This document shows positions 54,001 to 64,000 of a stretch of 64,000 nucleotides of DNA, piece after piece. This DNA comes from Planctomycetota bacterium (lineage in GTDB: Bacteria > Planctomycetota > UBA8108 > UBA1146). Where the stretch lies: contig JAYZBV010000015.1 of assembly GCA_036338595.1 (NCBI GenBank), positions 14,103-78,102 on the forward strand, in the 5' to 3' direction. Within the stretch, counting starts at the first letter, position 1. Every line of letters begins with the position of its first letter. The position numbers are program-made.

Positions 54001-57000
54001 TGATCGGAGCCGTGCGCTCGCACTGGCCCGGCTTCAAGGCCAGATCTCCGGCCAGGAACTGCACCAGATCGGCATCGATGTGAATCTCGCGCCCTGTGTC
54101 GATCTGATCGAGCGCAGTGAAGCGCGTGGCATCGGATCTCGCTCCTTTGGATCGGACGCTGCACTGGCGCTGGTACTGGCGACCGAGATCGGTAGCGGGC
54201 ACCGGCAGTACGGGGTGCACGATTGCTGGAAGCACTATCCAGGGATCGGGTCGGTGAAGGTGGATCCTCATCATGGTCTGCCACGGCTGGAGAGTCAGGT
54301 CAGCGAGACTCATCTGCTTCCCTTCGCGGGAGCGAGCGCTGCCGGAGCTTCGATGGTGATGACGACTCACGTGGTCGCAGAACGTCTCGACCCGATCCAT
54401 CCGGTCACGACATCCGCTGCTGCGGTGAGCTACCTGCGAGAGGATCTTGGTTATCGAGGAGTGGTCATCACCGATTGTCTGGAGATGGGTGGTGTCGCTG
54501 GAATTGATTTCGAGCAGGTGATCCGAGGGGCGGCGGCTGCGGGCCACGATGCTCTGCTGGTCAGCCACACTCCGGCTCGGCAGTTGGAAGCTCTGCGGGT
54601 ACTCGAACGCCTCATCGATGCGGAGCAGGACAGTCAGGAACAGCATCAGCAGAGTCTCACTCGACTCGACTCGCTGTCGAGGATTGTGGTGGAGCATCCG
54701 ATCGCGCCTCTCCACGGCGAGTCGGTGGCGCTGGAGATCGCCCGCTGCGGAACGACGCTGCTGGCGGGGCCAGCGGCGACACTATCAGGATCCACAAGAG
54801 GGTTACTGGTGTTGCCGCAGTTGCACACCACCAGCCCCGTCGAGGATCCTCTTCAGGGGTTGCAGTTGAACCTGCTGGAAGAAGAGCTGGGCGACGGAGT
54901 GGAGACCCTTTCGATCGATGCAGAACCGAGTCGAGAACAGATCGAGCGGGTACTCACCACAGCACGAGGGGTTGCGGAGACGATCCTGGTGCTGAAGGGA
55001 TTTCGTCACAGTACAGCGGCCCGATCGCTGGTCGAGGAGCTGGCGACGCAGCAGCATCGACTGATCATCGTGTTACTGGAAGATCCGCGAGACCTGGTGG
55101 CGATTCCCGCAGCAGCGGGAATCTCGGTGATCACTGCCCATGGCTGCAGAGCGGTGCATCAGCAGGCGATCGCCGATGTCCTGCTGGGGCGAATTACACC
55201 CTCCGACCACTCTCCGATGAAGTGACCTTCCACCGCTGGGCGCTTGCCACTGAGGAGCCTCTCGATCAGAGGCGGACGTACTCGAATTCCAGCGGTTGGC
55301 CATTGATCCCGCGAGAAGGCGCAGCGATCCAGTTGGCCATCTTCCCCGGTTCAATCACCTGGTTCATGATGGAGACCAGGTAATCATTGTCCTCGGTGTT
55401 GAGTAGCCAGCGGCCTGAATTTGCGTCGTAGTGGTCCTTGGTGATGACATTGCCTTCGGGATCGAAAGAGTGCTCGGAGTAGAGCCCCTGATGGCGGTGA
55501 AAGCGTCGACTCGGCAGCGTGAGCCTTGTCTCTAGCCCCGCCTTTTCGAGGGTCCTGTTCCACTTCCTGAGAGCGCGTTGACAGTCATCGATGTATTCGT
55601 CGCGGAGAACCTCGTTGATGGCGTTGCGGTAAGGGACCTCGTCTTCGACCACAGCGCCATCGACGACCTGGGGAATGATCTTGATGCCATCTTTCATGAC
55701 ATGGTCCTCGTAGCGAGAATGTTCCTTGTATCGGCCCTTCAGGCCCTCGCCGAAGAAGTTGGCGGCGTTGGAGGAGATTTCTCCTCCGAACAGGTCGAGA
55801 CTGTAGGTGAACCAGTAGTTGATCGACCGCTGGATCATCTCGAGCGAGATCCCGCCTGCGCTCATCGGGTCTCCATCGGTCTCCCGCGTCAACTCCGCAC
55901 TGCGCTTGATGATTCGATCGAGGCCAGATTCTCCCACGAACAGGTGATGGGCTTCCTCGGTGAGCATGAAATTGCAGGTCCTGGCGAGCGGCTCGAAGCC
56001 ACTTTCTGCCAGCGATGCGAGCTGGAACTTGCCATCGCGGTCGGTGAAGTGAGTGAAGCAGAAGAAGGAGAGCCAGTGGTCACAGGCCTCGTTGAAGGCG
56101 TTGAGGATTCGAGGCTTGTCCTCGTCTCCACTGCGCCTGCAAAGGAGTTCCTCCGCCTCGTCACGACCATCTTTGCCGAAGAAGCGAAACAGCAGGTAGA
56201 CCATCGCCCACAGGTGTCTGCCCTCCTCCACATTGACCTGGAAGAGATTCCTCATGTCATAAAGCGACGGAGCGATGGTTCCGAGAAATCGTTGTTGCTC
56301 GACCGATGCAGGCTCTGTATCCGCCTGGGTGACGATGATGCGGCGTAAATTTCCCCGGTACTCGCCAGGGATATCTTGCCAGACAGGTTTCCCGAAATGA
56401 TCACCGAATCCGATGCTGTTTTCCGACTCGGTGGGCGTCAGGAAGATGCCCCAGCGATACTCGGGCATCTTGACATAGTCGAAGTTGGCCCAGCCGCCCG
56501 ATTCGACCGACACCGCGGTTCGCAGGTAGATGTCGTTGGTCTGGAACCCCGCAGGCCCCATGTCATTCCACCACTCCATGTAGAGGGGCAGCCAGTGCTC
56601 AAGAGCTCTCTGGAGTCGTTTGTCTCCGGCGAGATCGACGTTATTGGGAATTTTTCCGCTCTGATCAACGTTGCCCATCGAGTTCCCCTTTCCCCGCTCT
56701 CAAACCCGATCCCATGCAAAGTCTGGTCGTTCCGGTCGCCCGTATAGAGTCAAGGCTCCACTGGGACCGGTGGCGTTGGGCCGGATGAAAATCCAGTTCT
56801 GCCAGGCACTGAGTCGCCCGAATATCTTGCTCTCCAGGTTCTCTGGACCGGCGAAGCGGAGATTCGCCTCCATTCCGGTCAATGAATCCGGAGAGAGGCT
56901 CACTCGTTCCTCGATGGCTACCGGCACCATGTCCTCGTAATCAAACTCATCCAGCGCTTCGGTAACCAGGCCCAACTTCTCGGCAGAGCTGGCATCCAGA

Positions 57001-63000: not shown

Positions 63001-64000
63001 AATGGCGCGGCAAGATGATCGAGAAGTATGTCGACGCAGTGCTGCGCGAAGTGGCGGGACTGCCGAGACAGAGGATGGCGCCGCAGCACCCGCTGTAATT
63101 AGCCTGATGGGGTCCAGTTGCCACTATCAGGGCGTCTTAATCCATCCAGCGGCTACATACCGCCCTGTTCCATGCAATACTAAGGGCTGACTTTATTGTC
63201 GGGACGGACAGAAGTATTCAGTTCAGGTTGGAGGGATGGCAGTGACACCTACCAGTGGTCGGCGTGGTCTGCCCATCGCCCTGCTCCTTTTACTGCTTCC
63301 TGCCTTCTTGCAGGTTGACCTGGCGAGGTCGCAGGACCCGCTGCCAGATGGCTTCCTCGAATCGAATCACGTCTGGTCGGGGAGTTTCGACTCGGCGATG
63401 TTCGGTAGCAGCGTTGCCGATGCGGGGGATGTCAATGGCGATGGATTCAGCGACATCGTCGTCGGAGCCTACGGTTGGGACATCCCCGGAGGACTCTTCG
63501 ATGAGGGCGCCGCCTTCGTCTTCCTCGGCGGGCCCGACGGTATCGTCGGCACCGACCCCACGACCGCCAATGCGGTGCTGCTGGGGGACCAAGCGGGCAC
63601 CGAATTCGGCTGGAGCGTCGCCGGAGCTGGCGATGTCAACGGTGATGGCTTCGACGATATCATCGTCGGCGCTCACCATTACGACAGCACCATCGCGGGG
63701 GGGACTCTCGCTGTCGATGGCGCGGCTTTCGTGTTTCTCGGGAGTCCGACAGGGATCGACGCCACCGGCCCTTCCACCGCTCACGCCAGCATCTTCGGCA
63801 CGGTGCTAGATTCGCGTCTCGGCCACGCGGTCTCGGCAGCTGGCGATGTCAATAACGACGGCTTCGGAGACATCATCGTGGGCATGCCGCGCATGGGGAT
63901 CCCCTTTGCCTGTACGCAGACGAACCCGCCGACCTGCAGCATCCCGGAAAACGACTATCAAGGTAACGGCGGTGCGGCACTGATCTTCCTGGGGAGCGCA

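What a model noticed while it worked through the whole genome (the two positions that open the first line are those of the whole stretch)
55266..63098. BoxA-less benzoyl-CoA epoxidase cluster welded to a 4-hydroxybenzoyl-CoA reductase (hcrCAB-boxCB): a hybrid aromatic pat [...]
The O2-using epoxidase genes boxB and boxC are clustered with a three-subunit molybdoenzyme of the anaerobic 4-hydroxybenzoyl-CoA reductase type, while BoxA (the BoxB reductase) and benzoyl-CoA reductase are not found. The link recurs in unrelated soil lineages, suggesting reductive dehydroxylation feeding epoxidation, or the Hcr-like complex standing in for BoxA.
Evidence so far: boxB over NCBIfam cut, boxC 47%, HcrA 40% and HcrB 38% to Thauera, HcrB with the extra four-Cys insert. 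boxB in 27 of 28 family genomes, boxA in 0 of 28; no HGD-D/Bcr family hit here. Of 38 metagenome loci >=6 kb around HcrB homologues, 13 carry boxC/boxB: 7 close kin and 6 at about 50% identity with a different order hcrCAB-x-boxC-boxB, one followed by a benzoate-CoA ligase.
(Added by a program. Inside this text positions count along the whole contig: contig position 14,103 is position 1 of the stretch shown here. "Call 12" and the like, gene names such as g00115 and contig names such as C1 are that model's own, and its searches are not shown. The text may have been shortened before it was handed on; [...] marks where a part breaks off. The agent that wrote the report below was given it as the finding of a first reader that could run no searches.)

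Follow-up and report, generated by a model that had tools for sequence, protein, structure and literature searches.

The report
Glutamate-less Hcr enzyme beside BoxA-less epoxidase
An uncultured planctomycete places the oxygen-using benzoyl-CoA ring-opening genes back-to-back with a relative of an 'anaerobic' molybdenum enzyme that has lost its family's catalytic glutamate; the enzyme most likely supplies benzoyl-CoA rather than electrons, which points to an undescribed mixed route for breaking down aromatic compounds.

Summary
The genes are real, but they are not one operon. The host is a Planctomycetota bin (88% complete). BoxA loss is phylum-wide: boxB in 104 of 301 genomes, boxA over cut-off in 0.

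The Hcr-like enzyme is probably not the BoxA stand-in. It also occurs in 56 of 57 genomes with benzoyl-CoA reductase, in 18 Acidobacteriota lacking boxB, beside a true BoxA, and beside boxB that has its own ferredoxin and reductase.

It is not canonical 4-hydroxybenzoyl-CoA reductase: all three subunits miss the cut-offs, and the catalytic glutamate is Gln741 throughout one well-supported multi-phylum clade.

Best reading (0.55): a ferredoxin-driven dehydroxylase feeding benzoyl-CoA to BoxBC here and to Bcr elsewhere. It co-occurs with boxB in 95 of 104 genomes; physical linkage recurs in several gene orders but is a minority outside this family.

No benzoate-CoA ligase was found in 9 of 9 family genomes. 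A LeuA-like synthase tracks the enzyme (60 of 61 vs 0 of 19), hinting at a ligase-free Phe/Tyr route (0.25). The scan noted the pairing and the glutamine before, on other DNA.

The parts
55266..56678 (-). boxB, di-iron benzoyl-CoA 2,3-epoxidase (470 aa)
   Evidence: TIGR03225 719.7 bits over cut-off 499.1; full-length match to 3PER, both ExxH motifs kept
56700..58334 (-). [quoted passage not shown]
   Evidence: TIGR03222 686.1 bits, cut-off 712.3, whole profile covered; spacing
58335..58575 (.). 241-bp divergent spacer between boxC and panD
   Evidence: sequence; no sigma-70-like site found
58576..58989 (+). panD, aspartate 1-decarboxylase (CoA precursor synthesis), 17 bp before hcrC; a family-specific passenger
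   Evidence: TIGR00223 144.5 bits over 106; in 16 of 25 close-kin loci and 0 of 55 distant ones
59007..59558 (+). hcrC-like 2x[2Fe-2S] subunit (183 aa)
   Evidence: Fer2 + Fer2_2; TIGR03193 177.8, under cut-off
59551..62076 (+). hcrA-like molybdopterin subunit (841 aa), Gln clade
   Evidence: best PDB hit 1RM6_A E 4e-178; TIGR03194 801.3, under 994.55; tree
61771..61773 (+). codon for Gln741, at the position of Glu726 of Thauera HcrA (the conserved xanthine-oxidase-family glutamate)
   Evidence: gapless alignment to 1RM6_A and 7DQX_A; Gln in 77 of 77 covered loci of L006-L085, Glu in 118 of 132 covered family representatives
62076..63098 (+). hcrB-like FAD subunit (340 aa) with the extra four-cysteine [4Fe-4S] insert (codons 124-157, about 62445-62546)
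   Evidence: best PDB hit 1RM6_B, cysteines in register; four cysteines in 80 of 80 loci L006-L085

Best explanation
Two modules of benzoyl-CoA metabolism, normally unlinked in this phylum, sit back-to-back in this family. (1) The HcrCAB-like molybdo-flavo-Fe/S enzyme is a distinct glutamine-bearing clade of the 4-hydroxybenzoyl-CoA reductase group. It most likely takes electrons from reduced ferredoxin through the HcrB [4Fe-4S], FAD and two [2Fe-2S] centres to molybdenum, and removes the para-hydroxyl of a hydroxy-aroyl-CoA to give benzoyl-CoA (inferred). (2) BoxB epoxidises benzoyl-CoA with O2, BoxC opens the ring, and an unlinked BoxD plus beta-oxidation finish it (genes shown, flux inferred). 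BoxB needs only small amounts of a transient reductase; here it is probably reduced by an unlinked carrier, such as the single-cluster ferredoxin charged by 2-oxoacid:ferredoxin oxidoreductase or the stand-alone FNR, the same pool that would drive the Hcr-like enzyme (inferred). Shown: gene content, co-occurrence, the residue change. Not shown: substrate, direction, electron donor, and where the aroyl-CoA comes from.
For: Nearest characterised enzyme for alpha and beta is 4-HBCR, with the [4Fe-4S] insert kept. The Gln clade (35 rows, SH-aLRT 99) nests in the Hcr-like group (61 rows, 99) that holds the canonical HcrA representative P0142. In 301 Planctomycetota genomes an HcrA-like gene is in 95 of 104 boxB genomes and 56 of 57 bcrB genomes; among genomes without bcrB, in 57 of 65 with boxB against 33 of 179 without; 27 of 28 boxB-bearing families have it. 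None of 50 distant Gln-clade genomes has an over-cut-off HcrA, including the 12 with bcrB over cut-off, so the Gln enzyme fills the usual slot. Box genes flank Gln-clade genes in several orders: 6 of 35 metagenome loci >=8 kb; over-cut-off benzoate-CoA ligase-family genes follow in L076 and L121. L223 has korAB between boxCB and hcrCAB on one strand. [quoted passage not shown]
Against: The conserved glutamate, called essential in the family (PMC11760930, PMC13653126, passages), is glutamine. All three subunits miss the 4-HBCR cut-offs. 33 of 146 carriers have neither boxB nor over-cut-off bcrB. Physical linkage is a minority outside the family (1 of 55), and the sister family has TetR-hcrCAB unlinked to box. 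No aroyl-CoA ligase or class III CoA-transferase was found, so the substrate source is open. The host FNR has matches in only 7 of 41 boxB genomes tested. 4-HBCR is described as oxygen-sensitive (PMC12771579, passage). Genomes are related, so the counts overstate independence; 10 or so genomes appear in both the 50-genome and the 301-genome set.
Confidence: 0.55

Rival explanations
1. The Gln-clade enzyme acts in benzoyl-CoA metabolism but does different chemistry made possible by losing the base: removal of another ring substituent (amino, halogen, meta-hydroxyl), or CoA-dependent oxidation of an aromatic aldehyde straight to aroyl-CoA, which would bypass a ligase.
For: Gln is invariant in the clade (77 of 77 covered loci, 120 of 120 close homologues) while the alpha subunit is the best conserved of the three, which implies selection on a changed active site. 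Among boxB genomes, 55 of 62 with the high-identity (Gln) form lack a benzoate-CoA ligase against 11 of 33 with the low-identity (Glu) form. G013 keeps both a Glu and a Gln copy. A PnbB-family gene lies in the L223 run.
Against: Gln and Glu forms are almost mutually exclusive per genome, as expected of equivalents. Gln-clade genes sit next to benzoate-CoA ligase-family genes in L076, L121, L203 and others. The ligase contrast may be a lineage effect, and only up to 4 candidates per genome were scored.
Confidence: 0.25
2. The neighbourhood is a family-level rearrangement and the co-occurrence reflects shared ancestry and lifestyle; the Mo enzyme serves an unrelated pathway.
For: Divergent orientation with panD in between; unlinked in the sister family and in 54 of 55 distant loci. 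An unrelated-looking MopB-family enzyme shows a similar profile (43 of 61 vs 0 of 19), so lineage alone can produce such patterns.
Against: At least five different gene orders join Gln-clade genes to boxB/boxC/boxD, BoxR or aryl-CoA ligases in other lineages (L121, L187, L223, L247, L250, L206).
Confidence: 0.13
3. The Hcr-like complex is the missing reductase: it has lost molybdenum catalysis (Glu to Gln) and passes electrons from NAD(P)H or ferredoxin to BoxB.
For: boxA over cut-off in 0 of 301 phylum genomes and 2 of 50 distant ones; Hcr-like gene in 95 of 104 boxB genomes; loss of the catalytic glutamate; no reductase gene beside boxCB in 20 distant loci.
Against: Present in 18 of 18 Acidobacteriota genomes examined, none with boxB; present with a true BoxA in G042; present in L247 where boxB has its own ferredoxin and reductase. 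The Mo subunit and its cofactor motifs are strongly conserved. 33 boxB genomes have the Glu form instead, and 9 have no Hcr-like match.
Confidence: 0.07

Closest known systems
4-hydroxybenzoyl-CoA reductase HcrCAB of Thauera aromatica (PDB 1RM6/1SB3; TIGR03193-5); HbaBCD of Rhodopseudomonas palustris (name recalled)
   Same: Three-subunit layout and gene order C-A-B, best PDB hit for alpha and beta, four-cysteine insert in the FAD subunit, Gln225 (Gln214), the RGHG and GSYSSRVT motifs.
   Different: Under all three cut-offs; about 38% identity to the canonical representative; Gln for Glu726; Lys368 for Met357; host has Box and no Bcr.
BoxABCD aerobic benzoyl-CoA pathway of Aromatoleum (Azoarcus) evansii (BoxB 3PER/3PF7/3PM5/3Q1G)
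   Same: BoxB over cut-off, BoxC adjacent, BoxD over cut-off elsewhere in the genome.
   Different: No BoxA, no benzoate-CoA ligase, no BoxR-type regulator found in the bin. The figure legend of PMC4453571 lists only boxB and boxC for the Sedimenticola box cluster, so short clusters have a precedent; I did not check boxA in that genome.
Urolithin C dehydroxylase Ucd/Ucdh of Enterocloster bolteae
   Same: Second known reductive dehydroxylase of the xanthine oxidase family (PMC12771579, PMC11760930, passages).
   Different: Lacks the [4Fe-4S] loop, uses NADH and keeps the glutamate (E741).
HphABCD homologation of Phe/Tyr (benzylmalate synthase route) of Nostoc punctiforme
   Same: The host has a short LeuA-like synthase with Ala at the HphA Ala73 position, a LeuB next to a thiolase and an enoyl-CoA hydratase, and a fused LeuC/D-like aconitase (PMC12961565, passages).
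   Different: Hph is biosynthetic; the host enzyme differs at the other four pocket positions (Met, Val, Cys, His against Asp, Ala, Met, Ser); a catabolic use is only inferred.

Membership tests
4-hydroxybenzoyl-CoA reductase (HcrCAB) | Subunits reach the NCBIfam equivalog cut-offs | tested here: not met
   801.3/994.55, 275.7/404.55, 177.8/257.8
4-hydroxybenzoyl-CoA reductase (HcrCAB) | Extra four-cysteine [4Fe-4S] insert in the FAD subunit | tested here: met
   C124, C140, C148, C157 in register with 1RM6_B
4-hydroxybenzoyl-CoA reductase (HcrCAB) | Conserved active-site glutamate (Glu726 in 1RM6) | tested here: not met
   Gln741; canonical representative P0142 has Glu
4-hydroxybenzoyl-CoA reductase (HcrCAB) | Falls in the Hcr-like clade of the xanthine oxidase family | tested here: met
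   61-row group with P0142, SH-aLRT 99, quick tree without bootstrap
4-hydroxybenzoyl-CoA reductase (HcrCAB) | Ferredoxin-dependent dehydroxylation of 4-hydroxybenzoyl-CoA | not testable with these tools
   needs an enzyme assay
4-hydroxybenzoyl-CoA reductase (HcrCAB) | Host has benzoyl-CoA reductase downstream | tested here: not met
   no HGD-D hit in the bin; bcrB 0 of 8 family genomes; class II reductase not searched
Box pathway (BoxABCD) | BoxB with di-iron ligand motifs | tested here: met
   over cut-off; EGRH and EEAH aligned to 3PER
Box pathway (BoxABCD) | BoxC dihydrolase | tested here: inconclusive
   686.1 vs cut-off 712.3, full-length, adjacent to boxB
Box pathway (BoxABCD) | BoxD semialdehyde dehydrogenase | tested here: met
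   G000:C77:4592-6151, NF008868 629.4 vs 444
Box pathway (BoxABCD) | BoxA reductase | tested here: not met
   not found in the bin or in 301 phylum genomes, up to 5 candidates scored per genome
Box pathway (BoxABCD) | Benzoate-CoA ligase for entry | tested here: not met
   best 205 vs 375 bits in the bin; 0 of 8 family genomes
Benzylmalate synthase (HphA) | Pocket residues Ala73/Asp157/Ala159/Met186/Ser242 | tested here: inconclusive
   host LeuA-like has Ala/Met/Val/Cys/His, mapped through 6KTQ and 3RMJ alignments, not through HphA itself; matches neither HCS nor IPMS

The most novel reading that the evidence does not exclude
A complete, ligase-free catabolic route for phenylalanine and tyrosine in many uncultured Planctomycetota. 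Aryl-pyruvate is lengthened by LeuABCD-like enzymes, decarboxylated by 2-oxoacid:ferredoxin oxidoreductase to an aryl-propionyl-CoA and beta-oxidised to (4-hydroxy)benzoyl-CoA. A molybdoenzyme working without the family's catalytic glutamate removes the hydroxyl, and a BoxA-less epoxidase opens the ring with O2, both driven by the ferredoxin reduced upstream.
Probability: 0.25. Interest if true: 0.85.

Novelty: new variant of a known kind. Interest (0 to 1): 0.62.

Why it matters
If right, an enzyme type taught as anaerobic works in series with an O2-dependent epoxidase. About a third of the Planctomycetota genomes sampled (95 of 301) would carry this combination without BoxA, so marker-based annotation would misread them. 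A natural, widespread Glu-to-Gln form of a xanthine-oxidase-family enzyme is a direct probe of how reductive dehydroxylation works, for which two mechanisms are still in discussion (PMC12771579, passage). The missing ligase makes the entry route a testable open question.

Tried and rejected
Hcr as BoxA stand-in: rejected on distribution (see rivals). Host stand-alone FNR (C102:20101-21021) as the general BoxA substitute: matches in 10 of 80 genomes, above 50% identity only in 3 of the same order. Complex prediction BoxB with ferredoxin: no verdict, score 0.02. Entry routes not found in the bin: class III CoA-transferase, PaaA, HmgA, HppD; the one aromatic lyase is HutH. MopB-family enzyme with NrfC/NrfD as a PadBCD equivalent: under all cut-offs, no aromatic genes recognised around 20 homologues; left open. 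LeuA-like synthase: no match in any Gln-clade locus held, and aspartate kinase is its neighbour in 9 of 20 loci, which argues for amino-acid synthesis; one Glu-clade locus has it about 12 kb from hcrA (L370). RNA: two runs held 7-8% of the words; their contigs, mostly 90-95% alike or less, cover parts of all six genes, but come from relatives and may include DNA, so I draw nothing from them. Promoter and terminator scan at chance level. Plasmid search gave only about 35% relatives. Literature: ten searches listed no paper on an Hcr-Box link, a glutamine form or a catabolic benzylmalate route. The library lacks most subscription papers, and the primary BoxAB and 4-HBCR papers could not be read, so this is weak evidence of absence. 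No supplements were opened.
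Full report
Observation. The finding's coordinates are window coordinates and hold six genes. boxB (55266-56678, minus) is over its NCBIfam cut-off; boxC (56700-58334, minus) is full-length and just under; hcrC, hcrA and hcrB (59007-63098, plus) match the 4-hydroxybenzoyl-CoA reductase models best but stay under all three cut-offs. So this is a back-to-back pair of units, not one operon. The genome is an 88.3% complete, 7.2% contaminated bin; its closest relatives are titled Planctomycetota (UBA1146). It has no boxA, no HGD-D/Bcr hit and no benzoate-CoA ligase over cut-off.

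How general the linkage is. Of 80 GTDB loci fetched with HcrB (the best 80 of 220), box genes are present in 17 of 25 with HcrB at least 68% identical and in 1 of 55 more distant ones. In the sister family and most other lineages hcrCAB follows a TetR gene and box genes lie elsewhere. A motif scan of metagenomes listed 80 loci with flanks out of more than 120 matches; all 80 lie in HcrA-like genes, and 6 of the 35 that are at least 8 kb long carry boxB or boxC. The orders differ: hcrCAB-XRE-boxC-boxB-Rid-ligase (L121, L245), hcrCAB-boxC-boxB-XRE-PaaK-like (L187), boxC-boxB-PnbB-like-korA-korB-hcrCAB (L223), boxB-ferredoxin-reductase-amidohydrolase-PaaK-like-TetR-hcrCAB (L247), and boxC-boxR divergent from flavodoxin-ligase with TetR-hcrCA further on (L250). 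The link therefore arose several times but is a minority state.

Genome-level pattern. In 301 Planctomycetota genomes at least 85% complete, boxB is in 104, an HcrA-like gene in 146, bcrB in 57 (55 over cut-off, 2 split), boxA over cut-off in 0, and none of the 8 weak boxA matches is in a boxB genome. The HcrA-like gene is in 95 of 104 boxB genomes, 56 of 57 bcrB genomes and 33 of 179 with neither. At family level 27 of 28 boxB-bearing families have it. Kin are not independent, and these searches scored only 3 to 5 candidates per genome, so I quote counts and no P-values. In 20 distant genomes boxC-boxB stands as a two-gene unit without a recognisable reductase neighbour. BoxA loss is thus a trait of the phylum.

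Why it is not the BoxA stand-in. Among 50 distant carriers, 25 have boxB and 2 have boxA over cut-off; none of the 18 Acidobacteriota has boxB, and 5 of those have bcrB. G042 has boxA, boxB, bcrB and the Gln enzyme together. In L247 boxB has its own [2Fe-2S] ferredoxin and reductase in the same run as hcrCAB. The molybdenum subunit is the best conserved of the three, which does not suit a mere electron wire.

The glutamine. The alignment to 1RM6_A is gapless around the site: Thauera Glu726 faces Gln741, and the same column is Glu in 7DQX_A. That Glu726 is the catalytic residue of 4-HBCR is recalled; the structure paper was not available. Passages of PMC11760930 and PMC13653126 call this conserved glutamate essential in the family. 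Gln is found in 77 of 77 covered loci of L006-L085 (chosen by HcrB, not by this site), in 5 of 5 further high-identity loci and in 120 of 120 close homologues; 15 of 15 low-identity loci (38-49%) have Glu. The 80 metagenome loci were chosen by the Gln motif and do not count. Among 150 family representatives the column is Glu in 118, Gln in 6, another residue in 8 and not covered in 18. In a quick tree of 115 rows the Gln proteins form one clade of 35 rows (SH-aLRT 99) spanning Planctomycetota, Acidobacteriota, Gemmatimonadota, Myxococcota, Pseudomonadota, Chloroflexota and Rokubacteria, nested among Glu-bearing Hcr-like lineages together with the canonical representative P0142 (1301.7 bits). 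None of 50 Gln-clade genomes has an over-cut-off HcrA; one (G013) has a Glu copy as well. The two forms mostly replace each other, which favours a shared job.

The rest of the pathway in the host. BoxD is over cut-off on another contig; thiolases and hydroxyacyl-CoA dehydrogenases are present. XdhC, a MocA-like protein, MoaA and MoeA are present, and hcrCAB is the only xanthine-oxidase-family enzyme found. Cytochrome oxidase subunits I and II were found by recalled motifs. Candidate electron sources are KorAB, a single-cluster ferredoxin and an FNR. In a sister-family genome the same ferredoxin lies about 4.6 kb from boxB (L135). The FNR does not track boxB (7 of 41). 4-HBCR takes electrons from reduced ferredoxin (PMC12771579, passage), and BoxA is a two-[4Fe-4S] flavoprotein needed in minor amounts (PMC4498308, passage), so a shared ferredoxin pool is the simplest proposal; it is inference.

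The missing entry step. A benzoate-CoA ligase-family gene is in 72 of 301 genomes but in 0 of 9 of this family; among boxB genomes it is missing from 55 of 62 with the high-identity form and 11 of 33 with the low-identity form (forms assigned by identity band, residue checked in 20 of them). No class III CoA-transferase, PaaA, HmgA, HppD or PAL was found in the bin. The host has one short LeuA-like synthase under all cut-offs, a LeuB in one run with a thiolase and an enoyl-CoA hydratase, and a fused LeuC/D-like protein, but no convincing IlvC (two weak matches only). In 80 genomes that I picked from the 301 to span the groups, close homologues of the synthase are in 60 of 61 Hcr-like carriers and 0 of 19 non-carriers. 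Its pocket has Ala where homocitrate synthase has His and hydrophobic Met and Val where homocitrate synthase has Arg and Thr and isopropylmalate synthase has Glu and Ser; Ala at that place governs aryl-pyruvate selectivity in HphA (PMC12961565, passages). Against this: aspartate kinase is its neighbour in 9 of 20 loci, it is not found beside Gln-clade genes, and a MopB-family enzyme gives a similar if weaker profile (43 of 61 vs 0 of 19), so lineage may explain the pattern. I give the chain-elongation route 0.25.

Comparison and novelty. The cluster works like a 4-HBCR feeding a Box pathway, but the Mo enzyme fails two membership tests (cut-offs, glutamate) and the Box system lacks BoxA and a ligase. 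Papers seen as passages only: PMC10803450, PMC11760930, PMC13753352, PMC9765128, PMC4453571, PMC13653126, PMC12961565, PMC12771579, PMC4498308, PMC10420851, PMC12008989, PMC11291871. Boxes without BoxA are mentioned (PMC10803450; the PMC4453571 legend lists only boxB and boxC; PMC12008989 reports boxBC in uncultured actinobacteria). None of these passages describes an Hcr-Box link or a glutamine form, and ten searches listed no such paper, with the limits of the library. This scan has noted the pairing several times in soil genomes and the glutamine once; I had found the glutamine before looking. Verdict: a real, widespread new variant of known parts; the substrate, electron donor and entry route are open and directly testable. 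Interest 0.62.

Noticed in passing
window 7268-23115: Tandem run of about ten secreted-looking proteins of 417-632 aa with similar N-terminal stretches, next to ribosomal genes; the one scanned had no Pfam hit.
   Followed up: no
window 50292-51362: Divergent type II (archaeal-type) GAPDH-like gene, far under cut-off (84 vs 185), also present near the cluster in several family loci.
   Followed up: no
window 52239-55225: Sodium/solute symporter and NagZ-like glycoside hydrolase converge on boxB and are kept in many family loci; no sign that they belong to the aromatic pathway.
   Followed up: partly
window 45933-50078: 1381-aa glycine-rich secreted-looking protein without Pfam hit.
   Followed up: no
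G000:C77:62289-66664 (L293): Fused NrfC-NrfD plus a 947-aa MopB-family enzyme under all cut-offs; strong homologues in 43 of 61 Hcr-like carriers and 0 of 19 others; function open.
   Followed up: partly
G000:C85:13666-19081 (L339) and C76:27541-29469 (L369): Short LeuA-like synthase, LeuB with thiolase and enoyl-CoA hydratase, and a fused LeuC/D-like protein in a genome without convincing IlvC.
   Followed up: yes
L181, L194, L236 and window 58576-58989: Pantothenate genes beside hcrCAB in two lineages: panB-panC-like pairs (recognised by eye) there, panD here.
   Followed up: no
L139, L140 (G004, G003): A divergent, shorter BoxB (about 447 bits, under cut-off) with a BoxC only 36-37% like the window's.
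   Followed up: no
L035, L045, L048, L054, L056, L067: In Thermoanaerobaculia a gene of about 620-650 aa is inserted between hcrC and hcrA; in L067 hcrA is in several frame-shifted pieces.
   Followed up: no
P0125, P0157, P0239, P0255: Glutamine at the same column in other representatives; P0125 and P0157 fall outside the Gln clade in the tree, suggesting independent origins.
   Followed up: no
G000 C31/C69, C46/C85, C67/C102: Duplicated stretches at 70-86% protein identity, in line with the 7.2% contamination; some unlinked genes cited may come from a close relative in the bin.
   Followed up: partly
G000:C71:65056-66350 (L294): Futalosine-pathway menaquinone gene next to the single-cluster ferredoxin; a similar arrangement lies near boxB in L135.
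   Followed up: partly
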